Positions 13,031-63,732 of a stretch of 64,000 nt of DNA are shown here, piece by piece (position 1 is the first letter of the stretch; every line of letters begins with the position of its first letter). The notes below the pieces were generated by a model. The model was not told the DNA's origin. It did no database searches and saw only the letters and a program-made list of their open reading frames with translations. Both the position numbers and the translations under genes were made by a program. The DNA comes from Minisyncoccota bacterium (GTDB lineage Bacteria > Patescibacteriota > Minisyncoccia > Phycocordibacterales > UBA9973), in assembly GCA_041659205.1 (NCBI GenBank), contig JBAZYS010000001.1, forward strand, positions 123,166 through 187,165, written 5' to 3'.

Positions 13031-13129
13031 AAATAGAGATAATTTAATTTCCTAGTTGGAAGTTAGATTTTCTTTGCATTTTTTTGACAAATTGTTATAC
13101 TTGTCGTTACTTAAATACAAACAAAAAAA

Positions 13130-14521
13130 ATGAAAAAAATAAAAAAACTTGGTAAAAATTGGAAAAAGTTTTGGAAGCTCGGAGCGGATGAATTCAACAC
13201 GCAGTTTTTCGGCGTGAACAAAGATGGTGAGCTCACTGCAACCGAAGGTCACCATATATATAATTTGAGCGACATGGCTCATAAGTATGGCACACCCCTA
13301 CAAGTAATATTTCCTTTTATTATTGAAGACAGACTTAAGGACCTTTTGGGATATTTTCAAGCCTATATGAAAATTTATGGGTATAAAGGTAAATTCTTTT
13401 ACCACTATCCAATGAAAGTAAATCAAAATAAAGAATTTATTCTTCCGATTTTATCTGAGGGAGCGAACCTTGAAGTAACTTCTGCCAACGAACTCTGGAT
13501 AGTAAAAAATCTCTGGGAAAGAGAGAAGTTTAATAGTAAAATTCGGGTATTCTGTAATGGTCCTAAAACTGATCAATATCTTGATTTGATTGAAGAATTG
13601 CGTGCAAAGGGGATGAGTATTGTTCCTATCATCGAGAGTTTAGATGAAGTGGATAGAATTTCTAAGTATAAAGGAGATGTCGGAGTGCGGGTGGATTTAA
13701 ATATTAAAGCAGATACACATTGGGATAAAAAGTTTGATCGTTTTGGGCTTTCTGAAAATGATGCACTTGATTTAAGCAAAATAAAAAATTTAAAGATATT
13801 ACATTATCACCTCGGTTCTCAAATAAAAACTCAAAAAAGTATTTTGGACGGAGTAAAACATGCATTTAGTATTTATGTTCAACTTCAAAAAACACATCCA
13901 TCACTCGACACGCTCGACATTGGTGGTGGTTTTGGTGTGCCTTATGAAAAGAAGAAGTTCTACACTGCCAAGGGTGTCTCTAGTAAAATCATTAAAGTAT
14001 TAAAAAGTTTGTCCGATAAAGCAGGAATTAAACATCCAAACTTGGCTGTGGAGTGGGGTCAATATATTGCTGCACCTGCACAAATTACTATGTATAAAGT
14101 TCTTTCAAAAAAGGCTATTCCAAAAGCAAATGCAAAGGCTTGGTATATTATAGATGGTAGTTTTATGAATGATTTAAAGGATACTTGGGCTATTCATCAA
14201 AAATGGCATGTTATACCAGCAAACAATATGCATAGTGTCCTGAAGACTGTATGGCTCGCAGGGAGCACTTGTGACTCAGATGATAAATATACTGCAGGGG
14301 GGAACTATATTATGATGCCCAAGCTTCATGACAATAATGATGCTCAATTAATAGCAGTTCTTGATACTGGAGCATACCAAGATGGGCTCTCTTCTCACCA
14401 TTGTCTACTTGCTGCACCACTTAAAATTGTTGCTCAAGATGGTATGGTTAAAGTTGCTCGAAAGCGCGAAAATGCAGATTCCATCGGTAAGCTTTTTGGT
14501 TGGAATGGAGATAATAAATAA
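13130..14521 (+). CDS. PLP-dependent decarboxylase of the Orn/DAP/Arg decarboxylase family (alanine-racemase-like fold); most similar in motif to biosynthetic arginine decarboxylase.
   Basis: The motifs HYHLGSQ, DIGGGFGVPY and C-terminal AGSTCDSDD are typical of fold-type III decarboxylases (the SpeA-like H.HLGSQ and CDSxD). The assignment rests on motifs alone. Confidence 0.6.
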   Translation: MKKIKKLGKNWKKFWKLGADEFNTQFFGVNKDGELTATEGHHIYNLSDMAHKYGTPLQVIFPFIIEDRLKDLLGYFQAYMKIYGYKGKFFYHYPMKVNQNKEFILPILSEGANLEVTSANELWIVKNLWEREKFNSKIRVFCNGPKTDQYLDLIEELRAKGMSIVPIIESLDEVDRISKYKGDVGVRVDLNIKADTHWDKKFDRFGLSENDALDLSKIKNLKILHYHLGSQIKTQKSILDGVKHAFSIYVQLQKTHPSLDTLDIGGGFGVPYEKKKFYTAKGVSSKIIKVLKSLSDKAGIKHPNLAVEWGQYIAAPAQITMYKVLSKKAIPKANAKAWYIIDGSFMNDLKDTWAIHQKWHVIPANNMHSVLKTVWLAGSTCDSDDKYTAGGNYIMMPKLHDNNDAQLIAVLDTGAYQDGLSSHHCLLAAPLKIVAQDGMVKVARKRENADSIGKLFGWNGDNK

Positions 14522-14524
14522 TTT

Positions 14525-15037
14525 ATGGAGGAAAATAAAATTAATAAAAAATTTTCTCGGGTCCTCGGAAAAAATCCCCAGACCACTTTAAAATATTTTA
14601 TCAATTTTATTTTATTGTTTGTTTTTTTTATTGGTGGATTTTTTTTACTTAAAGATTTTTCAAAAAATTTAGTAATTGAAGATGTTAAACAAATAGTAAT
14701 CGGTGGGCAGACATTGAATGTGGACCTTGCATTAACCCCTCTGGGGCAGACACAAGGACTTTCAGGAAGAAGTGAATTAAGAGAAAATGAGGGAATGTTA
14801 TTTGTTTTTGAGCAGCCAGGGAAATATTCCTTTTGGATGAAGGATATGAAGTTTCCTTTAGATATTATTTGGATAGGTGAAGATATGAATGTAATTTATA
14901 TACAGAAAAATGCCTCACCTGAATCATATCCAGAAAGTTTTGTCTCAGAAAAAAATGCTAAATATGTTCTAGAGGTTTTTGCAGGTTTTGCAGATAAAAA
15001 TAATTTAAAAGAAGGGGATAAGGTGGAGTATAAATAA
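14525..15037 (+). CDS. DUF192-family protein (COG1430-like) with an N-terminal TM anchor.
   Basis: The core MLFVF...FWMKDMKFPLDIIW...YVLEV resembles the conserved DUF192 core, and there is an N-terminal hydrophobic helix. It is tightly linked (4-nt gap) to the decarboxylase. Confidence 0.55.
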   Translation: MEENKINKKFSRVLGKNPQTTLKYFINFILLFVFFIGGFFLLKDFSKNLVIEDVKQIVIGGQTLNVDLALTPLGQTQGLSGRSELRENEGMLFVFEQPGKYSFWMKDMKFPLDIIWIGEDMNVIYIQKNASPESYPESFVSEKNAKYVLEVFAGFADKNNLKEGDKVEYK

Positions 15038-15064
15038 TAAAATAAGTTTCAAATTTAGATAAAG

Positions 15065-15100
15065 AAAATCCTCCGCTTTTGGCAGAGGATTTTCGTTTTT
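15065..15100. terminator. Bidirectional Rho-independent terminator shared by the DUF192 operon (+) and rnpB (-).
   Basis: The hairpin is aaaatcctccgc-tttt-gcagaggatttt. A T-run follows on the + strand and U-rich sequence follows on the - strand. Confidence 0.6.
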
Positions 15101-15102
15101 GT

Positions 15103-15448
15103 GCAGGTAACTATAAGCCGAATTTTGTGGCCCGACCGAAGTCGAGCGATAGCAATTTATCTAGGCTCTAAATTACTCTAGAGCTCAAGCGATTCTTCCG
15201 CCTCATCGGCGGACACGATCTTGCACAGGAGTAAGGGTTTAGCCGTTTCACTCTGACGTTTCCGTCAGACTATTCCGCAGATTGCTCTATGGAACCCTAG
15301 CCTTTTGGCATTGGCGTCTCTGCTCGCACCTATGTATTGCTACACACGGGTATTACCCGCTACCTGTTTTTCGCCCCGCCGAGGCGGGGTAAACTGTGTT
15401 CGGACTTTCCTCTCCGACCTTACGTCGGAGTAGCTATCCATTGCCTGC
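15103..15448 (-). ncRNA. rnpB: RNase P RNA (bacterial type, about 346 nt).
   Basis: The minus-strand sequence contains the universally conserved P4 strands GAGGAAAGTCCGAAC and ACAAAATTCGGCTTATAG (compare AGGAAAGUCCGGGC / ACAGAACCCGGCUUA). It also contains GUGAAACGGC, and a P1 pairing between gcaggcaa (5') and ttacctgc (3'). The GC-rich structured segment sits in an AT-rich genome. Confidence 0.75.
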
Positions 15449-15520
15449 TTTTATACTATAACATATTTATCATTGTATTTCAATGGGTAATTGTGTAGTG
15501 TCTTTTGCGCGATGGGGGGC

Positions 15521-15549
15521 TTGCTTTTTTTATACATGTATGATATACT
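15521..15549 (+). promoter_or_regulatory. Sigma70-like promoter TTGCTT-17-TGaTATACT, positioned to drive a short transcript that would end at the 15609..15635 terminator.
   Basis: The -35 ttgctt (15521-15526), a 17-nt spacer and the extended -10 tgaTATACT (15541-15549) are all read directly from the sequence. Confidence 0.4.
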
Positions 15550-15608
15550 CTTCTTGTGGGTGTGAGGTAAAATTCACATTTATCGTAAACAACATAAGTG
15601 CCGCAAAA

Positions 15609-15635
15609 GCCCGCCGAAAGGTGGGTTTTTGTTTT
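15609..15635 (+). terminator. Strand-specific intrinsic terminator (its G-U wobble pairs form only in the + sense).
   Basis: The hairpin is gcccgcc-gaaa-ggtgggt followed by ttttgtttt. The reverse strand would carry A-C mismatches in the stem. Confidence 0.45.
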
Positions 15636-15683
15636 GCCCTTTTTTGCTATTCTAGCTATAATAATAGGGAATAGGTCAAGGGC

Positions 15684-15712
15684 TTGCTTTTATTAGATTA
15701 GTGTGATATAAT
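15684..15712 (+). promoter_or_regulatory. Promoter TTGCTT-17-TGaTATAAT that ends 6 nt before the ATG at 15719 (leaderless transcript predicted).
   Basis: The -35 lies at 15684-15689 and the extended -10 tgaTATAAT has its hexamer at 15707-15712. The ATG at 15719 coincides with the expected +1. Confidence 0.5.
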
Positions 15713-15718
15713 ATACTT

Positions 15719-16111
15719 ATGAAAAATGAAAATTTATATGTAGGGGAGGGTCCTTTTAAAGGTAGCTACGAAGGTTTCAAAACGAAGATTTCTGTTCAAC
15801 CTGATGATATAAAAAGAGTTCGCGCTGAAGCTAAATCTCGCGGTCAAGATGAAGATTTGGCTGAAAAAACGTATAGAGAAAAAATCGAAAAAGCTAATGT
15901 AAGAATTAGCGGTAAAGAAATTACTCCTGAACAAAAAGTGGAAATGGATAATTTGGCCAATATGATATTGGCAAAGCAGGCAGAGCAGCAGGCAAAGCAA
16001 GCAGAAAGAAATAAAAAGGAATCAGAAAATTTGCAAGATAGAAAAGATAGATTGCTTGAAATATTAGCAGAGAGAAATGGTCCACGAGATGGTCAGAATA
16101 CTCAACATTAA
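15719..16111 (+). CDS. Hypothetical charged, coiled-coil-rich protein (130 aa).
   Basis: It has a clean ORF, its own promoter, and a downstream hairpin (16122-16143). It has no recognisable motifs. Confidence 0.5.
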   Translation: MKNENLYVGEGPFKGSYEGFKTKISVQPDDIKRVRAEAKSRGQDEDLAEKTYREKIEKANVRISGKEITPEQKVEMDNLANMILAKQAEQQAKQAERNKKESENLQDRKDRLLEILAERNGPRDGQNTQH

Positions 16112-16121
16112 TTAAAACACT

Positions 16122-16143
16122 AAAGTCCCCGAAAGGGGACTTT
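16122..16143. terminator. Hairpin terminator aaagtcccc-gaaa-ggggacttt.
   Basis: It is a perfect 9-bp stem with a GAAA loop, located between convergent units (the + CDS and the - strand tRNA-Ala). Confidence 0.5.
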
Positions 16144-16219
16144 AGTGTTGATTTCATGAATCCTAAACCTAATAGCTTTCACAAAAAAAAGCCTAGCGTG
16201 CGCCAGGCTTTTTTCCTCG

Positions 16220-16292
16220 TGGACCGTACAGGACTCGAACCTGCCACCCCCTCATTGCAAATGAGGTGCTCTACCAGATGAGCTAACGGCCC
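16220..16292 (-). tRNA. tRNA-Ala (anticodon TGC).
   Basis: The reverse complement folds as a cloverleaf with acceptor gggccgt/acggtcc, including the diagnostic G3:U70 pair. The anticodon loop is tttgcaa and the T-loop is ttcgagt. No CCA is encoded. Confidence 0.85.
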
Positions 16293-16346
16293 GTGCATAC
16301 ATTAAAACTTACTTCTCTCTCAATTCTGTATTGCTTTTACTAGGCG

Positions 16347-16367
16347 CTACAGATGAGCTAACGGCCC
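16347..16367 (-). repeat. Duplicated 5' fragment (about 19-21 nt) of the tRNA-Ala gene, 54 bp upstream of the intact copy.
   Basis: ctacagatgagctaacggccc matches tRNA-Ala positions 16272-16292 (gggccgttagctcatctg in tRNA sense). Downstream of the match it diverges (..tagcgcc). Confidence 0.6.
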
Positions 16368-16498
16368 AAACAACCTAAACCAATAAACCCTATATGTACA
16401 AAGATATTCTATCTTATTTTAACAATAATGCAAATTTTGGTGTTGTTTTTTATTAAATTTCTGTTAATATAAAGAAGTTGTTTGAAAAACAACTGAAC

Positions 16499-16570
16499 TC
16501 TGGGGTAGCTCAGCGGTAGAGCGGTCGCCTGTTAAGCGATTGGTCGTAGGTTCGATCCCTACCCCCAGAG
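16499..16570 (+). tRNA. tRNA-Asn (anticodon GTT).
   Basis: The cloverleaf has acceptor tctgggg/ccccaga, D-arm gctc-agcggta-gagc, anticodon loop ctgttaa and T-loop ttcgatc. Confidence 0.85.
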
Positions 16571-16839
16571 CATCGTAAAAACAATATTAAAATAGCCACC
16601 GCCCCTTTTGGGGCGACGGCTTTTTTGGTTTTCTTTTTGACCACATAGAGCGTGAGCCAAAAAGTAATGTCGGCTGTAAGACTTCCTAGAACAGAGCCAA
16701 TAGTTATACCGAAAGCTAGAGAGCTTAGGTAGATAAATAATGGGCGAAGAAAGAATACATCCAGGCAGTCTGCAATTCCTAGGGTCAGGGAGACCACTTT
16801 GATTGCTTCAAAGTAACCTCCGACCATTTCTAATTTCAT
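16510..16839 (-). pseudogene. Doubtful or degenerate ORF for a small hydrophobic peptide. Its frame runs through the terminator hairpin and the tRNA-Asn gene before reaching a stop.
   Basis: The N-terminal ~65 aa (MKLEMVGGYFEAIKVVSLTLGIADCLDVFFLRPLFIYLSSLAFGITIGSVLG..) are TM-like, but the C-terminal third overlaps tRNA-Asn. It overlaps the upstream ORF 16808..17017 out of frame, which suggests a frameshifted or decayed gene. Confidence 0.25.
16595..16627 (+). terminator. Intrinsic terminator after tRNA-Asn.
   Basis: The hairpin is gccaccgcccc-tttt-ggggcgacggc followed by tttttt. Confidence 0.6.
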
Positions 16840-17017
16840 GCCATATTAATAACCCCCATAAAGGAAGACTTTCAGCAATTGCCACAATGGGGGCACTGAA
16901 AGAAGGTGAAAGGGAAAGATTTCCCATGGCCCAGCCAGTAGTGGGGCCAAATACGTTTCCTAGAGCTTCTGCTTGCAGTATGGGGTGCCTGACGAGGCAC
17001 TTTAAGCTAATAGACAT
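16808..17017 (-). CDS. Small hypothetical membrane peptide (70 aa) with a strong Shine-Dalgarno site.
   Basis: The ATG at 17017 is preceded by AGGAGG (rc of 17024-17029) with a 6-nt spacer. The product has hydrophobic segments (PIVAIAESLPLWGLLIW). The locus is higher in GC than its surroundings. Confidence 0.35.
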   Translation of the reverse strand: MSISLKCLVRHPILQAEALGNVFGPTTGWAMGNLSLSPSFSAPIVAIAESLPLWGLLIWHEIRNGRRLL

Positions 17018-17099
17018 AAATAACCTCCTTAGATATTTTACTACAATTAAATAAAAAAAGTAGCAAGTTTTAGGCTCGCTACTCTTCTGCTGATGGATC

Positions 17100-17378
17100 C
17101 TATGATTTAATGCGAAGTTTGCGAAGAAACTCTTCATCTTCTTGTTGTTTCTTTTTAGTTAAGGATGCAGCTTTTTCTTTGCTCGCTTTTATGTCAGCCG
17201 ATTGGGCCAGATGATTTAGAGTCTCCCTTGAGGGTGTCCAAGAACAACCCTTTTTACAGTATGGACAGAAGGCAAAAAAACGACGTCCATCTTTTGCATT
17301 ATATTCAGCCCTGTTAACCGGTAGTTCTTCCTTGCAATATGGGCAAGGGATGTTTACTGCCCACCACTGGCTTTCCAT
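17100..17378 (-). CDS. Small zinc-ribbon protein (CPYC...CPYC) with a Lys/Glu-rich tail; it has a strong SD.
   Basis: Two CxxC pairs (CPYCKEE, CPYCKKGC) sit 22 aa apart. AAGGAGG lies 5 nt upstream of the ATG (rc of 17384-17389). Confidence 0.5.
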   Translation of the reverse strand: MESQWWAVNIPCPYCKEELPVNRAEYNAKDGRRFFAFCPYCKKGCSWTPSRETLNHLAQSADIKASKEKAASLTKKKQQEDEEFLRKLRIKS

Positions 17379-17486
17379 ATCGTCCTCCTTTCAAGGAACT
17401 AGGGTTATGTCGTAAGTATACCTATCTCTTCAAAAATTGCTATAATTAACAGTAGGGTAATTATTATTAACTTTTCATAAAAAAGT

Positions 17487-17675
17487 ATGCAAATATTTAA
17501 AACACGAAGTTTTGAATGGTGGCAAATGGGTTTAATAAAAGTTTGTCTTATTTCTTTGGGTATTTTGTTAGGCTTATATTTTTATGATTATCTTTTAGAG
17601 TTTTTGTGGCTTTGGTGGGGCTTGTTTGTAATCATTGGAATTTATTTTATTGTTAGATTCTTCCGGGGGCAATAA
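17487..17675 (+). CDS. Hypothetical small two-TM membrane protein (62 aa).
   Basis: Its hydrophobic helices are LIKVCLISLGILLGLYFY and LWLWWGLFVIIGIYFIV. No homolog is recognisable. Confidence 0.3.
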   Translation: MQIFKTRSFEWWQMGLIKVCLISLGILLGLYFYDYLLEFLWLWWGLFVIIGIYFIVRFFRGQ

Positions 17676-17778
17676 AATTATATTGACTCTTAATACTTAA
17701 TACTATTTGTGTTTATAAAAAGATAGTAATAACTATGCTATAATAGCAACATTATTAATTTAGTTTTAAGTAGATTAT

Positions 17779-18072
17779 ATGGATAGACTTACTCACAAAA
17801 ATCTTCAAGAAAATCTTAAAGAAAAAATTGGGAATGTAGCATGGGAATCTGCAACTAGCGTAGCGGGACATCTTGTAGATTTGAAAAGGATAGATCTAGC
17901 TAAAAAACATTTAAAAAAAGTAATCGAAAATGGTGAATCGGATGGAAAAGATATAAAAGTTAAACTTAATGGATGGTTGGAAGGTTTGAAAAAAACGGAA
18001 AAGGATGAGGAAAAATTAGACATAATCATTGAATTACTAAGATGGTTAAAAGCCGAAGGAGGGGAAGAATAG
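17779..18072 (+). CDS. Hypothetical acidic/charged protein (97 aa).
   Basis: It is a clean ORF with no motifs. Confidence 0.4.
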   Translation: MDRLTHKNLQENLKEKIGNVAWESATSVAGHLVDLKRIDLAKKHLKKVIENGESDGKDIKVKLNGWLEGLKKTEKDEEKLDIIIELLRWLKAEGGEE

Positions 18073-18148
18073 AACCAACTTCATTGAATTTTTAATGAAT
18101 TTAAAGTATACTAGAAAAAAGCTTATTAATAATGAATAATCAATATAT

Positions 18149-18280
18149 ATGGCAAAAAGATCAACCACGTTGAGTCCAAAAACTAAATCAAGACATTCTC
18201 ACAAGACTGCAAAAAGACTTGCAGTTAAGAGTATCATGCTTACGAAAAAAGCAGCTAGAAACAAAACAAAGTTCGCGTAA
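18149..18280 (+). CDS. Small, highly basic 43-aa ORF (MAKRSTTLSPKTKSRHSHKTAKRLAVKSIMLTKKAARNKTKFA). It could be a ribosomal-protein-like or leader peptide. It is not in the supplied ORF track because it is under 60 aa.
   Basis: It is read directly from the sequence and is 28% K/R. It lies in an intergenic gap upstream of the MFS transporter. Confidence 0.3.
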   Translation: MAKRSTTLSPKTKSRHSHKTAKRLAVKSIMLTKKAARNKTKFA

Positions 18281-18303
18281 ATTACTAACTTATCTAATTT
18301 CTA

Positions 18304-19473
18304 ATGGAGAAAAGATTTTCAAATATTCACCCTGATGTCTTCAAATTAGGTCTTGTGAGCTTTTTAACTGATATTAGCTCAGAGGCCATCTTTTCAGTTT
18401 TTTCTGTGTTTTTCACTGTGATAGTTGGAGCTCCAGCATCGCTTCTAGGTGTGGTGGAGGGTATTTCTGACTTTTCTGCATCTTCCTTAGATTATTTTGC
18501 AGGCTGGCTTTCAGATAAAACGGGTAAAAGAAAACAATTAGCAATTTTTGGTTATGGTTTTTCTACGGTCGCAAAAGTTATTCTTTTGGTAGGAAGTTCA
18601 GTGGCAACGCTTGCATCATTTAGAATTATTGAGCGTGTGGGTAAAAGCTTTCGTGGTCCACCTAGAGATGCTTGGCTTTCTGCTGTTGCCCTTGAGTCAA
18701 ATAGAGGATATACCTTTGGTCTGCATAAAGCGATGGATAAAGCAGGCGCTATATTGGGTCCGCTCGTTGCATATTTTTTACTTTTATATTTAGGGACAAA
18801 TAGAAATACTTTTCATATTATTTTCGTTGTGGCAATATTTGGCGCACTTGGGGCAGTGCTTGTTTTGGCTCTTATGAAGGATCGTCCTGGAATTCCACAC
18901 GAACGAGAAAATATTTTTAAAGCTTGGGGGACATTGAGCCCAGCTTTTAAACTCTTTCTTATTCCTGCTGGTATTTTTTCATTAGCATATTTTAGTTTTG
19001 GTTTTTTACTCCTTCGAGCATATTCTGTCGGTTTTGCTATTAAAGATGTAGTTTTACTCTATGCGCTTTTTAACATTTCATTTGTTTTTATATCTATTCC
19101 AGTAGGGAAGCTTGGTGATTTTATTGGGCGAAGATATATTATTATTCTAGGATATTTGACTTATATTATCATGTCCCTAGGTTTCATTTTTGCAAAAGAA
19201 AAATGGGAAATAATTGCCCTATTTATTTTATTTGGTATTTTCTACAGTATTGATGAAGCTCAGAGTAAAGCATTTATTTCCGACATTGAAAAGGACAGGA
19301 GAGCGACAGCCATTGGTGCCTATAATTTTACTACCGGTTTAATTTATCTTCTTTCTTCTTTAATTGCAGGGGTTCTTTGGGTTTTGAACCCTGTTTATGC
19401 TTTTGTCTTTGCGGCTTCTGTTGCTTTTGCTGCAATGAGTGTATTTATCTATCTTTTTAAGAGAATTGTTTAA
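18304..19473 (+). CDS. Major facilitator superfamily transporter.
   Basis: It has about 12 predicted TM helices. The MFS loop-2/3 signature GKRKQ..IERVGKSFRGPPRDAW (a D-R-x-G-R-[KR]-like motif) is present. Confidence 0.8.
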   Translation: MEKRFSNIHPDVFKLGLVSFLTDISSEAIFSVFSVFFTVIVGAPASLLGVVEGISDFSASSLDYFAGWLSDKTGKRKQLAIFGYGFSTVAKVILLVGSSVATLASFRIIERVGKSFRGPPRDAWLSAVALESNRGYTFGLHKAMDKAGAILGPLVAYFLLLYLGTNRNTFHIIFVVAIFGALGAVLVLALMKDRPGIPHERENIFKAWGTLSPAFKLFLIPAGIFSLAYFSFGFLLLRAYSVGFAIKDVVLLYALFNISFVFISIPVGKLGDFIGRRYIIILGYLTYIIMSLGFIFAKEKWEIIALFILFGIFYSIDEAQSKAFISDIEKDRRATAIGAYNFTTGLIYLLSSLIAGVLWVLNPVYAFVFAASVAFAAMSVFIYLFKRIV

Positions 19474-19491
19474 CTTTTACTTTTTTTAGGT

Positions 19492-19497
19492 TATAAT
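19492..19497 (+). promoter_or_regulatory. -10 box TATAAT 6 nt upstream of the ATG at 19504 (leaderless).
   Basis: The context is ggtTATAATaaaaatATG. Confidence 0.4.
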
Positions 19498-19503
19498 AAA
19501 AAT

Positions 19504-20178
19504 ATGGAAAATATAAAAAATCATGGTATTTGGGTTATTGGTGCAGTATTATTAGTGTTTTCTTTTCTCTCTTTTGCGGCTGCTCAGAATTTTTCTAAGC
19601 AACAGTCTTATGTAGAGGTGAAAGGTTTATCAGAAAAAATTGTTAAAGCGGATGTTGCTATTTGGTCAATTAATTTTGATGTTAAGTCAAATAACATAGA
19701 TTCTCTCTATGCAGATATTGAAAAAAATACTTCTGCGATAAATTCATTTCTTTTAGCTAAAGGATTTGAGGCATCAGAAATAAATGTTGCTCCAGTAAAC
19801 ATTTATCAGGATACATATAAAGATGCTTTATTTAGGTATAATGCGACTACTCAACTGTCAGTTTACACAAAGAAAGTTGATACAGTTCGTTCTGCTTCCA
19901 AGGATACTTTGATTTTAGTAAAACAAGGTGTTACTTTAAATCAAAATTCAATTGCTTTTGAATTTTCTGATATAAACAGTGTTAAACCAGAAATGCTTGC
20001 AGAAGCTATAAAGAATGCAAAAGATGCAGCCGCTCAGTTTGCAAAAGAGTCGGGATCACATTTGGGTGGTGTTTCTCGGGGGAATCAAGGTGTGTTTGAT
20101 ATTACCGATAAGGATCCTGGTTCTCCTGAATACAAGAAGATTCGTGTAGTTTCTACTCTTAGGTTCCTTTTAAAATAA
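19504..20178 (+). CDS. SIMPL-domain (DUF541/YggE-like) secreted protein.
   Basis: It has an N-terminal signal/TM segment. Its overall pattern, with an oxidative-stress-like beta-rich core, matches the SIMPL family. The assignment is from family sequence features alone. Confidence 0.65.
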   Translation: MENIKNHGIWVIGAVLLVFSFLSFAAAQNFSKQQSYVEVKGLSEKIVKADVAIWSINFDVKSNNIDSLYADIEKNTSAINSFLLAKGFEASEINVAPVNIYQDTYKDALFRYNATTQLSVYTKKVDTVRSASKDTLILVKQGVTLNQNSIAFEFSDINSVKPEMLAEAIKNAKDAAAQFAKESGSHLGGVSRGNQGVFDITDKDPGSPEYKKIRVVSTLRFLLK

Positions 20179-35676: not shown

Positions 35677-35698
35677 AATAAGTTGAAAGGAGGCTCCT

Positions 35699-63306: not shown

Positions 63307-63585
63307 ATGGATCCTGAGTCCAAAAAATTATTAGAAGATACTTTTGCCCTTGCGCAAGAGAATAATCATATGCTTCATAAGGTTAGAAATGTTCAGAAAT
63401 GGGCTACCTTTTGGCAAATGCTTAAAATATTTATAATAATTGGAGTTGCATTGGGTGCATTTTACTTTTTAGACCCTTATTTGAATAAGATTGTAGAAGT
63501 GTATAATTCAATTTCCGGTACAGGCCAAAAATTTAATGATACAAATAATTCATTTCAGGATTTTTTGAAAAAATTTCAAAATTAA
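63307..63585 (+). CDS. Hypothetical small protein with one TM helix (92 aa).
   Basis: It has a clean ORF and a hydrophobic helix, IFIIIGVALGAFYFL. It has no motifs. Confidence 0.4.
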   Translation: MDPESKKLLEDTFALAQENNHMLHKVRNVQKWATFWQMLKIFIIIGVALGAFYFLDPYLNKIVEVYNSISGTGQKFNDTNNSFQDFLKKFQN

Positions 63586-63656
63586 GCCGAGGTAGCTGTT
63601 TTGGTAAATATACGCAGTTAGTAAGGTGTAAATAAGTTTTAGTTAAGATATCGAAT

Positions 63657-63729
63657 GCCGAGGTAGCTCAGTTGGTAGAGCGCTCCCCTGAAGAGGGAGA
63701 TGTCACCAGTTCAACTCTGGTCCTCGGCA
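63657..63729 (+). tRNA. tRNA-Phe (anticodon GAA).
   Basis: The cloverleaf has acceptor gccgagg/cctcggc, anticodon stem ctccc/gggag and anticodon loop ctgaaga. Confidence 0.9.
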
Positions 63730-63732
63730 CAT

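What the first reader, a model, noticed from the sequence alone, without database searches (positions are those of the whole stretch)
16220..17400. tRNA-associated islet containing SD-bearing zinc-ribbon and membrane-peptide ORFs, a decayed ORF running into tRNA-Asn, and a duplicated tRNA-Ala 5' fragment.
Between tRNA-Ala, tRNA-Asn and the next housekeeping genes there is an about 800-bp minus-strand block with higher GC. It has three ORFs, and two of them have perfect AGGAGG sites: the CPYC...CPYC zinc-ribbon protein and the 70-aa membrane peptide. The third ORF overlaps the second out of frame and has no stop until it has crossed the tRNA-Asn gene, which suggests decay. A 21-nt copy of the tRNA-Ala 5' end (16347-16367) sits 54 bp from the intact gene. 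tRNA genes are classic integration targets. Together these features look like the scar of a small mobile or integrative element, though no integrase remains.
Basis: partly seen in the sequence, partly recalled or inferred. Interest (0 to 1): 0.5.

Follow-up and report, generated by a model that had tools for sequence, protein, structure and literature searches.

The report
Orphan-gene islet beside tRNA integration hotspot
A 1.15-kb stretch of strain-specific DNA sits next to a tRNA gene pair that related bacteria use as a landing site for mobile islands, so it is probably an ordinary integrase-less remnant; the "duplicated tRNA fragment" is something else, a conserved pseudo-5'-half in the tRNA-Ala leader that always matches its own tRNA.

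Summary
The window has tRNA-Ala(UGC) 16219-16292(-), tRNA-Asn(GUU) 16499-16571(+), three minus-strand ORFs (two behind perfect AGGAGG sites), raised GC, and an exact 18-nt copy of the tRNA-Ala 5' end.

The genome is a Nomurabacteria/Paceibacterota (CPR) MAG. The block 16572-17722 has no counterpart in about 95 related loci. In the closest relative the same slot holds a 5.9-kb island whose large serine recombinase abuts tRNA-Ala. At least six other relatives carry such recombinases against tRNA-Ala or tRNA-Asn.

The zinc-ribbon ORF is a real gene. It belongs to a small uncharacterised family seen on phage-like contigs and in one viral protein. ORF2 and ORF3 are true orphans. The window has no integrase and no att repeats. 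"Remnant of a mobile island" is therefore plausible but unproven.

The tRNA fragment is not this islet's scar. It lies downstream of the tRNA-Ala promoter and begins a 40-nt pseudo-5'-half found in 16 distinct loci. Positions 5-7 match the cognate tRNA in 14 of 16 loci, across four sequence variants. Similar upstream copies precede tRNA-Thr, tRNA-Asn and the window's own tRNA-Phe. Why they are kept is unresolved.

The parts
16219..16292 (-). tRNA-Ala(UGC), intact
   Evidence: ARAGORN. Rfam 63.6 bits. 100% identical to the gene in L002, L005, L010 and others.
16293..16327 (-). Variable A/T-rich spacer between the pseudo-5'-half and the mature tRNA-Ala
   Evidence: Unalignable among 16 loci. No detectable similarity to the tRNA 3' half.
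16328..16367 (-). Psi-Ala: 40-nt pseudo-5'-half of tRNA-Ala. Positions 1-18 are identical to the gene; positions 19-40 are TAGCGCCTAGTAAAAGCAATAC.
   Evidence: Exact 18-nt repeat. Conserved core in 16 distinct loci. The motif occurs only here in the window. nhmmer finds it only in psi loci.
16406..16434 (-). tRNA-Ala promoter (TTTGCA-17-TAGAAT), 38 nt upstream of psi-Ala
   Evidence: Consensus scan. The same TTGCAT-N16/17-TAGAAT box is conserved in relatives, 9-18 nt before the tRNA start in most psi-less loci and 13-22 nt before psi in many psi loci.
16499..16571 (+). tRNA-Asn(GUU), intact and intronless, divergent from tRNA-Ala
   Evidence: ARAGORN. Rfam 70.1 bits. The intergenic promoter region 16405-16539 is 87.5% identical to L002.
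16594..16621 (.). Terminator hairpin after tRNA-Asn, read on both strands and lying inside ORF3
   Evidence: Terminator scan, both strands.
16572..17722 (.). Window-specific accessory block (ORF3, ORF2, zinc-ribbon gene, 62-aa membrane peptide gene)
   Evidence: No DNA or protein similarity to any of about 95 related loci. Bounded by homology to L002 at 16571 and 17723.
16510..16839 (-). ORF3: orphan ORF with two hydrophobic segments. It has no stop codon before the terminator and ends inside antisense tRNA-Asn.
   Evidence: The only database hits are antisense-tRNA tails.
16808..17029 (-). ORF2 (69 aa, ATG at 17017) with AGGAGG at 17024-17029; orphan
   Evidence: No homologue. No Pfam, PHROG, NCBIfam or PADLOC hit.
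17054..17088 (-). Intrinsic terminator after the zinc-ribbon gene
   Evidence: Terminator scan.
17100..17389 (-). Zinc-ribbon gene (92 aa, ATG at 17378) with AGGAGG at 17384-17389; a real gene of a small uncharacterised family
   Evidence: HMMER hits at E 1e-12 to 1e-4 to proteins of about 90-125 aa. Alignment A1. AlphaFold2 pLDDT 89. Viral structural and sequence match at E 2.6e-5.
17487..17675 (+). 62-aa two-helix membrane peptide ORF. It is window-specific but has host-like low GC.

Best explanation
Two separate things were merged in the finding.

(1) The islet. The divergent tRNA-Ala/tRNA-Asn pair is a conserved landmark in Nomurabacteria. DNA on the outer (3') side of either tRNA is lineage-specific, and in several relatives it is an island headed by a large serine recombinase. 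The window's block 16572-17722 occupies that slot. It is most likely the integrase-less remnant of horizontally acquired, probably phage-derived, DNA. The remnant keeps one working small gene: a zinc ribbon plus a long helix, with its own SD, a plausible promoter and a terminator. It also carries two orphan ORFs. ORF3 lost its stop at the junction with the tRNA-Asn terminator and is probably decaying.

(2) The tRNA-Ala 5' fragment. It is not an edge of that islet. It is the first 18 nt of a 40-nt pseudo-5'-half (psi-Ala) lying between the tRNA-Ala promoter and the mature tRNA, so it should be transcribed as part of the pre-tRNA leader. It came from an old partial duplication or insertion at the D-loop of the gene. 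Since then it has been kept matched to the cognate tRNA's acceptor strand.

Shown: the anatomy, uniqueness of the islet, the recombinase islands in relatives, the zinc-ribbon family, and conservation and co-variation of psi.

Inferred: the mobile origin of the islet, decay of ORF2 and ORF3, transcription of psi, and whatever force keeps psi matched to the tRNA.
For: Islet:
- It is unique among about 95 loci.
- L002 is collinear on both sides but has a 5.9-kb island in the same slot, with a serine recombinase, a Panacea antitoxin and a PD-(D/E)XK nuclease.
- Recombinases abut tRNA-Ala or tRNA-Asn in seven loci.
- Short 3'-end duplications of tRNA-Ala lie 100-250 nt downstream in six loci.
- GC and GC3 are raised, and the AGGAGG sites are atypical for this genome.
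- The zinc-ribbon family is rare and sits beside phage exonuclease, TROVE, primase and anti-repressor genes. Its best structural match is a marine-virus protein with 30% identity.

Psi-Ala:
- The promoter lies upstream of it.
- The 40-nt core is conserved while the adjacent spacer is scrambled.
- Positions 5-7 equal the cognate tRNA in 14 of 16 distinct loci across four variants (CGT, CCA, CCT, CTG). The search pattern left those positions free.
- A same-strand upstream copy of the tRNA's first 12 nt occurs at 21 of 92 tRNA genes, against 0 in three control searches.
Against: - The window has no integrase, no att repeats and no phage structural or replication genes.
- No empty site was recovered. 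No second strain is on record.
- The raised GC is moderate; other parts of the window reach 46%.
- Phage association of the zinc-ribbon family rests on two or three short contigs plus one viral protein. There is no hit in GenBank phages or in plasmids.
- Small orphan genes are common in CPR genomes, so a native origin cannot be excluded.
- For psi, no leader-specific helix with covariation was found. The psi-recombinase association is weak (p = 0.08, or 0.016 after removing a duplicate locus and a 19-aa fragment hit).
Confidence: 0.55

Rival explanations
1. The islet is native. It would be a cluster of fast-evolving, lineage-specific small genes of the kind common in CPR genomes, sitting next to tRNAs by chance and never part of a mobile element.
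For: - No integrase or att repeats.
- The flanking small genes p130 and p62 are equally unique yet have host-like GC.
- Synteny around the tRNA pair is generally poor in this clade.
Against: - GC3 and SD usage differ from host genes.
- The zinc-ribbon relatives occur only on unrelated, higher-GC contigs with phage-type neighbours, and never in about 95 related loci.
- The same slot holds a recombinase island in the nearest relative.
Confidence: 0.25
2. Psi-Ala is a functional cis-acting part of the pre-tRNA-Ala leader. Its 5' strand would be able to replace the true 5' strand in pairing with the tRNA's 3' acceptor and D-stem strands, or the released leader would act as a tRNA-half mimic. Selection would keep it matched to the tRNA.
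For: - Positions 1-40 are conserved next to a scrambled spacer.
- 99.4% of cells pair when psi 1-7 and 10-13 are set against the tRNA's 3' strands, with 14 double-sided changes and 0 of 500 shuffles reaching that value.
- Positions 19-40 are conserved yet differ from the tRNA, so homogenisation by the tRNA cannot explain them.
- Analogous elements precede tRNA-Thr, tRNA-Asn and tRNA-Phe.
Against: - Complementarity to the 3' strand cannot be distinguished from plain identity to the 5' strand.
- No independent covarying helix exists in the leader.
- Most relatives (about 80% of species sampled) lack psi and place the tRNA right after the same promoter.
- Psi has partly decayed in L021, L054 and the distal copy of L095.
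Confidence: 0.3
3. Psi-Ala is a neutral relic of a partial tandem duplication or a small insertion into the D-loop region. Short-tract gene conversion or unequal crossing-over with the adjacent gene keeps it identical to the tRNA over 18 nt.
For: - Direct repeats lie 67-76 nt apart.
- A tandem psi-psi-tRNA array with a 73-nt period occurs in L095, as expected from unequal crossing-over.
- Psi occupies the position relative to the promoter that the tRNA 5' end has in psi-less loci.
- Other tRNA-end duplications with small inserts are frequent in the clade, one carrying a GIY-YIG gene.
Against: - An 18-nt tract is short for recombination.
- This does not explain conservation of positions 19-40.
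- Flanks on the 5' side of the two copies are not homologous.
Confidence: 0.4
4. One reading: the tRNA-Ala 5' fragment and the islet are the two visible ends of one degraded integrative element.
For: Physical proximity only.
Against: - The fragment is shared by species that lack the islet, including L002 at 94% identity over 149 nt.
- It lies inside the tRNA-Ala transcription unit.
- An intact tRNA-Asn gene and both promoters separate it from the islet.
- Integration normally leaves the partial and complete copies at opposite ends of the element (PMC9897764).
Confidence: 0.03
5. The ORF2/ORF3 segment (16625-17035) is a structured non-coding RNA rather than coding sequence.
For: - Raised GC.
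- No protein homologues.
Against: - Folding z-scores are only -1.8 and -1.4.
- No Rfam hit at E up to 1.
- ORF2 has a perfect SD and ATG.
- The annotated frame scores best of the three for both ORFs.
Confidence: 0.05

Closest known systems
tRNA-targeted genomic islands and prophage remnants (Reiter 1989 and Williams 2002, as cited in PMC9897764)
   Same: The accessory DNA lies directly beside a tRNA gene. It is atypical in composition and absent from relatives. Relatives carry integrase-bearing islands at the same tRNAs.
   Different: The window has no integrase and no complete/partial tRNA pair flanking the islet. The only tRNA fragment is a 5' piece, 57 nt from its own gene and on the other side.
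Integrative elements with large serine recombinases (phiC31, Bxb1 and A118 type; from general knowledge)
   Same: Relatives' islands encode proteins with Resolvase and Recombinase domains (Zn_ribbon_recom also detected in two of the three tested) next to the junction.
   Different: Classical examples mostly target protein-coding genes. Here the recombinase ORFs run antisense into a tRNA gene, which supplies their stop codon. The att sites were not defined, and none is present in the window.
Partial tRNA gene copies left by integration (attR-type fragments; PMC9897764)
   Same: Psi-Ala is a partial copy of a tRNA gene in direct orientation next to a complete copy.
   Different: - It is a 5' part rather than a 3' part.
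- It is separated from the gene by 29-36 nt of spacer rather than a kilobase-scale element.
- It lies downstream of the promoter.
- It is conserved across species and co-varies with the tRNA.
Repeats carrying the tRNA 3' end in the E. coli tyrT locus (recalled from memory, not checked here)
   Same: Short copies of a tRNA terminus are repeated in tandem next to the gene and are prone to unequal crossing-over, as in the tandem psi of L095.
   Different: Those are 3'-end copies downstream of the gene, not a 5' copy in the leader.
Zinc ribbons of the NrdR N-terminal type
   Same: A four-cysteine ribbon of similar geometry (Foldseek TM about 0.37 over 40 residues).
   Different: There is no significant sequence or fold match (E > 0.1) and no ATP-cone. 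The family has its own WW..CPxC..YSADGE..CPxC core and an acidic-FLK..I tail.

Membership tests
tRNA-integrated genomic island / prophage remnant | An integrase or recombinase gene within the element | tested here: not met
   No recombinase domain in any ORF of 16572-17722. tblastn with relatives' recombinases gives no hit in the window.
tRNA-integrated genomic island / prophage remnant | Direct repeats (attL/attR) containing a piece of the target tRNA at both ends | tested here: not met
   There is no second copy of the tRNA-Asn 3' end with up to 3 mismatches in the window. No tRNA-derived match of 10 nt or more exists in 15000-20000 apart from psi-Ala.
tRNA-integrated genomic island / prophage remnant | Presence/absence polymorphism among relatives (empty site) | tested here: inconclusive
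   The block is absent from all related loci, and L002 has a different island in the slot. No relative shows tRNA-Asn joined directly to the right flank, and no second strain is on record.
tRNA-integrated genomic island / prophage remnant | Atypical composition and mobile-element-type cargo | tested here: met
   GC is 42.2% against 36.5%, and GC3 is 0.34-0.45 against 0.19-0.31. Zinc-ribbon relatives sit beside phage-type genes and include a viral protein.
Integration-derived partial tRNA copy (att fragment) | The fragment and the complete gene lie at opposite ends of the inserted element; the fragment is usually the 3' part | tested here: not met
   Psi-Ala is the 5' part, 57 nt from the gene, and nothing but a 35-nt spacer follows its 40-nt core.
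Uncharacterised zinc-ribbon family (alignment A1) | Two CxxC knuckles, an N-terminal WW..I.CP.C segment, a YSADGE-like turn, a conserved W/L..H.A..D helix start, a C-terminal acidic-FLK..I motif, and a length of about 90-125 aa | tested here: met
   phmmer E = 1.3e-12 to the nearest member, with 16 members at E < 1e-3. Invariant C12, C38, C41 and D81, with C15 nearly invariant. The profile recovers the window protein at 1.7e-28.
Group I intron-containing tRNA-Asn of Patescibacteria (PMC13011429) | A group I intron at anticodon-loop position 35/36 | tested here: not met
   The window's tRNA-Asn is contiguous. The relative L002 does carry the intron (Rfam Intron_gpI 75.9 bits).
Structured non-coding RNA (any Rfam family) in 16572-17400 | A covariance-model hit or exceptional folding energy | tested here: not met
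   No Rfam hit at E up to 1. z-scores are -1.8 and -1.4.

The most novel reading that the evidence does not exclude
Psi-leaders may be a previously undescribed feature of Nomurabacteria tRNA genes. Each is a roughly 40-nt pseudo-5'-half placed about one tRNA length upstream of tRNA-Ala, tRNA-Thr, tRNA-Phe or tRNA-Asn, transcribed with the tRNA and kept matched to its acceptor strand. Two readings are open. They could be a cis-acting element controlling pre-tRNA folding or processing. Or they could be the footprint of an unrecognised class of small insertions that target the D-loop region and carry a replacement 5' end. One such insertion, in L050, still encodes a GIY-YIG endonuclease.
Probability: 0.25. 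Interest if true: 0.7.

Novelty: new variant of a known kind. Interest (0 to 1): 0.4.

Why it matters
The islet itself is ordinary: one more small, integrase-less patch of accessory DNA at a tRNA hotspot.

It does document that in reduced CPR genomes the tRNA-Ala/tRNA-Asn pair is a preferred landing site for serine-recombinase islands. It also gives a first genomic context for a small zinc-ribbon family that has no annotation.

The more useful by-product is the psi-leader. A partial tRNA copy that is conserved, lies inside the transcription unit and co-varies with its tRNA in four sequence variants is not what integration scars look like. It recurs at several tRNA species.

If psi is functional, it would be a new kind of pre-tRNA leader element. 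If it is not, it is a clean natural case of concerted evolution over an 18-nt tract, and a warning for att-site and pseudo-tRNA callers.

Tried and rejected
- Homologues of ORF2 and ORF3. A word-indexed search of 5.8 billion proteins returned only antisense-tRNA-Asn artefacts. Pfam, PHROGs, NCBIfam and PADLOC returned nothing.
- Zinc-ribbon protein in GenBank phages and in plasmids. Nothing significant. Profile-to-DNA scans of viral contigs were not possible because no stretch was conserved enough.
- Psi motifs and the L002 recombinase in IMG/VR. No hits.
- Non-coding RNA reading of 16625-17035. Rejected.
- att repeats for the islet. None. att repeats for the L002 island could not be defined.
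- The idea that psi plus spacer is a full-length decayed tandem tRNA copy. The spacer shows no similarity to the tRNA 3' half (summed z = -1.0).
- The idea that an element-borne complete tRNA displaced a host 3' fragment. No 5'-truncated tRNA-Ala was found in recombinase loci.
- A leader-specific RNA structure. RNAalifold gives only invariant short helices.
- A second strain or empty site, by exact-protein look-up. Only the same sample turned up.
- An assembly error as the cause of ORF3's missing stop. The independent assembly is identical.
- The AFDB fold library was unavailable.
Full report
**Source and anatomy**

The zinc-ribbon protein is identical to a hypothetical protein of a Candidatus Paceibacterota MAG. 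Neighbouring genes are 80-94% identical to those of Nomurabacteria/Paceibacterota MAGs. The window is 36.5% GC.

Around the finding, the order is:
- a PLP-decarboxylase-like gene and a DUF192 gene;
- RNase P RNA, 15098-15449(-), 84 bits and below Rfam's cut-off;
- a small conserved transcription unit;
- a unique 130-aa gene;
- tRNA-Ala(UGC), 16219-16292(-);
- tRNA-Asn(GUU), 16499-16571(+);
- three minus-strand ORFs;
- a 62-aa membrane peptide gene, a 97-aa gene and a 43-aa gene;
- an MFS transporter.

**Checking the observation**

- The tRNA-Ala repeat is 18 nt exact, 16350-16367 = 16275-16292. It lies 57 nt from the gene.
- ORF3's stop lies inside tRNA-Asn. Its last 19 residues are just antisense tRNA, and that tail explains the only two database 'hits'.
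- Both AGGAGG sites are correctly spaced. They are unusual here: of 31 AGGAGG in 64 kb, only these two and one plus-strand site at 35688 precede free-standing ORFs of 60 aa or more, and two further plus-strand sites fall inside long ORFs.
- The block is 42.2% GC, in the top 2.7% of windows of its size.
- GC3 is 0.34-0.45 against 0.19-0.31 in long genes.
- An independent assembly is identical, so ORF3's missing stop is not an assembly frameshift.

**Are the ORFs genes?**

The zinc-ribbon ORF is a gene.
- Exhaustive HMMER against 1.84 billion representatives finds about 16 proteins of 92-125 aa (E from 1e-12 to 8e-4). They share WW..I.CP.C, a YSADGE-like turn, a second CxxC, a helix start L..H.AL..D and a C-terminal acidic-FLK..I motif.
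- AlphaFold2 gives a confident model (pLDDT 89): a zinc ribbon followed by a 37-residue helix.
- No solved structure matches significantly; the nearest are the NrdR ribbon and Cren7, at E > 0.1.
- The best predicted-viral match is an uncultured marine virus protein: E 2.6e-5, 30% identity, TM 0.59.

Members with usable context have phage-type neighbours.
- L082 carries exonuclease phrog_298, TROVE phrog_850, a DnaG-type primase ribbon and DUF6378.
- L083 carries the ORF6N anti-repressor phrog_4792 and an AbrB-like gene.
- Those contigs are 41-55% GC, so they are not close relatives of this genome.
- GenBank phages and PLSDB plasmids give nothing significant.

ORF2 and ORF3 have no homologue anywhere and no family hit. 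In both, the annotated frame scores best for host codon usage, but weakly. The segment shows no RNA-structure signal.

**Comparative context**

A scan of one genome per species, using the decarboxylase as query, returned 80 loci.
- A tRNA-Ala(UGC)/tRNA-Asn(GUU) pair lies downstream of decarboxylase-DUF192 in many of them. Orientation and spacing vary from 17 bp to 1.9 kb.
- None of about 95 loci contains anything similar to ORF3, ORF2, the zinc-ribbon gene, p62 or p130 at protein or DNA level.

The closest relative is L002 (decarboxylase 94% identical).
- It is collinear with window 13096-15636 and with 17723-19388.
- The tRNA block 16219-16571 is present but inverted as a unit.
- Between tRNA-Ala and the p97 homologue, L002 has 5.9 kb absent from the window. 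This carries a 520-aa large serine recombinase (Resolvase + Recombinase + Zn_ribbon_recom), zinc-ribbon membrane proteins, a Panacea-domain antitoxin and a PD-(D/E)XK nuclease.

Similar recombinases from three subfamilies abut the 3' end of a tRNA in other loci.
- They abut tRNA-Ala in L021, L092, L094 and L096, sit 450 nt away in L023, and abut tRNA-Asn in L011.
- Their ORFs run antisense into the tRNA, which supplies the stop codon.
- Six loci have 15-18-nt copies of the tRNA-Ala 3' end 100-250 nt downstream of the gene.

The pair is therefore a real integration hotspot, and the window's islet sits in the slot that islands occupy. That supports the mobile-remnant reading. However, the window has no recombinase and no repeat of either tRNA's 3' end. 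No empty site or second strain could be found.

**The tRNA-Ala fragment**

A consensus promoter (TTTGCA-17-TAGAAT, 16434-16406, minus strand) lies 38 nt upstream of the fragment.
- The same TTGCAT-N16/17-TAGAAT box is conserved in relatives.
- In most loci without the fragment, the mature tRNA starts 9-18 nt after the -10 box.
- In many loci with it, the fragment starts 13-22 nt after the -10 box.

The fragment therefore occupies the place of the tRNA 5' end and lies within the transcription unit.

Six of the species genomes carry it: L002, L007, L017, L021, L054 and L081. An exact-pattern metagenome scan that left positions 6-7 free, and position 5 free as C or T, added 11 contigs. Together with the window this gives 16 distinct sequences.

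The alignment shows a conserved 40-nt core, a 27-36-nt unalignable A/T-rich spacer, and then the tRNA.
- Positions 1-18 of the core equal the tRNA.
- Positions 19-40 (TAGCGYYTCGTRARAGCAAC) resemble tRNA positions 19-38 with indels. The element is therefore a pseudo-5'-half reaching the anticodon loop.
- Positions 5-7 equal the cognate tRNA in 14 of 16 sequences across four variants: CGT, CCA, CCT and CTG.
- L021 has three mismatches and L054 has one. L095 has two tandem copies with a 73-nt period, and the distal copy is decayed in positions 1-18 but intact in 19-40.

The fragment is also shared with L002, which lacks the islet.

**What keeps psi?**

- RNAalifold finds only short invariant helices in the leader.
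- Set against the tRNA's 3' acceptor and D-stem strands, psi pairs in 99.4% of cells with 14 double-sided changes. No shuffle of 500 reaches that value. This cannot be told apart from simple identity to the 5' strand.
- The spacer is not detectably a decayed tRNA 3' half.
- The 22-nt motif of the 19-40 part occurs nowhere else in the window or the loci, and not in viral contigs.
- Psi-bearing genes are somewhat more often next to a recombinase (5 of 15 against 2 of 25), but the association is weak.

Two forces remain possible and are not exclusive. One is short-tract conversion or unequal crossing-over between the repeats. The other is selection on a leader function. Conservation of positions 19-40, which differ from the tRNA, argues that conversion alone is not enough.

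**The phenomenon is general in this clade**

- A same-strand copy of the first 12 nt (up to 1 mismatch) lies 15-200 nt upstream of 21 of 92 tRNA genes. Three control searches (other strand, and downstream on both strands) gave none (Fisher p = 3e-7, or 3e-4 without the pattern-ascertained loci).
- The hits are tRNA-Ala (14), tRNA-Thr (4), tRNA-Asn (2) and the window's own tRNA-Phe.
- The window's tRNA-Phe is at 63657-63730, and its copy starts at 63586.
- Psi-Phe and several psi-Thr copies share a different post-acceptor motif, TAGCTGTTTTGG..ATATACGC.
- In L050 the insert between a pseudo-5'-half and an intact tRNA-Asn still encodes a GIY-YIG-like endonuclease ORF (read from the sequence; the related L008 ORF hits Pfam GIY-YIG at 9e-16).
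- In L005 and L088 the insert is a structured element of about 115 nt related to the inserts found between tRNA-Ala and its 3' copies. That element matches no Rfam family.

These cases suggest that small insertions bringing, or duplicating, a replacement tRNA end are a recurrent process here. Psi-Ala may be an old, stabilised product of that process.

**Verdict**

- The islet is plausibly an integrase-less remnant of acquired, phage-related DNA at a demonstrated hotspot. This is an ordinary kind of feature, held with moderate confidence and without proof of boundaries.
- The tRNA fragment is not its scar. It is a conserved, co-varying pseudo-5'-half in the tRNA-Ala leader. That is the unusual part, and its function is unknown.

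Noticed in passing
window 63586-63656 (+), upstream of tRNA-Phe 63657-63730: The window's tRNA-Phe(GAA) has its own upstream pseudo-5' copy (GCCGAGGTAGCT, exact 12 nt, 71 nt upstream). The copy starts right after the stop codon of ORF 63307-63585. It is followed by GTTTTGGTAAATATACGC, a motif shared with the pseudo-copies in front of tRNA-Thr in relatives L044, L047, L012 and L003.
   Followed up: partly
window 15517-15650 (+): A conserved small transcription unit lies between the RNase P RNA gene and p130. It has an extended -10-like promoter, a transcript of about 90 nt with a 5' hairpin, a conserved single-stranded stretch (ATCGTAAACAACATAAGTGCCGCAAAA) and an intrinsic terminator. It is homologous in L002, L003, L005 and L007. 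RNAalifold predicts 22 pairs, 5 with compensatory changes. No Rfam family matches. It is a candidate novel sRNA.
   Followed up: partly
window 15098-15449 (-): The RNase P RNA (bacterial class A) scores 84.4 bits, below Rfam's gathering score of 100. The genes in L002 (96.3 bits) and L005 (96.8 bits) are also below it, so this clade's RNase P RNA is divergent and would be missed at default thresholds.
   Followed up: no
L002 13082-13410 (-): In the closest relative, tRNA-Asn(GUU) is interrupted in the anticodon loop by a group I intron of about 250 nt (Rfam Intron_gpI 75.9 bits). ARAGORN missed the gene. This matches the recently described position-35/36 introns of Patescibacteria (PMC13011429). 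The window's tRNA-Asn is intronless.
   Followed up: yes
L002 13689-15251, L021 18993-20573, L092 5756-7390, L094 8619-10427, L096 464-2314, L011 18286-19770: Large serine recombinase ORFs have no stop codon of their own. They read antisense into the adjacent tRNA-Ala or tRNA-Asn gene. In L002, L021 and L092 they share the same frame and end in ..TPSLQMRCSTR. In L094 and L096 the ORF continues through the whole tRNA and the psi element.
   Followed up: partly
L050 14600-14998: A pseudo-5'-half of tRNA-Asn, with a 20-nt GC hairpin inserted in the D-loop, is followed by a GIY-YIG-like endonuclease ORF containing an in-frame stop, and then an intact tRNA-Asn. A related intact GIY-YIG gene directly follows tRNA-Asn in L008 (Pfam GIY-YIG 9e-16).
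   Followed up: partly
L005 6867-6987 and 8090-8221; L023, L050, L062, L071, L087, L088: A family of structured inserts of about 110-250 nt shares the motifs GGCGGAG, CGAGCYGGKG, an A/T hairpin, and GTGACC or GTCGARGGAGAG. They lie between a tRNA gene and a short duplicate of its end, 3' for tRNA-Ala and 5' for tRNA-Asn. No Rfam family matches. They may be small non-autonomous elements.
   Followed up: partly
window 15637-16218: The 130-aa lysine/glutamate-rich ORF (15719-16111, +) and its flanks, on the 3' side of tRNA-Ala, are also unique to this genome. L002 has an unrelated 135-aa ORF in the same place. Both outer flanks of the tRNA pair are therefore variable.
   Followed up: partly
protein P0004 (database hit, not in the window): The top HMMER hit of the zinc-ribbon protein is a 5140-aa protein with 54 matched stretches, the best of which matches query residues 43-69. 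It looks like a giant repeat protein built from a related helix or ribbon unit. It was not examined.
   Followed up: no
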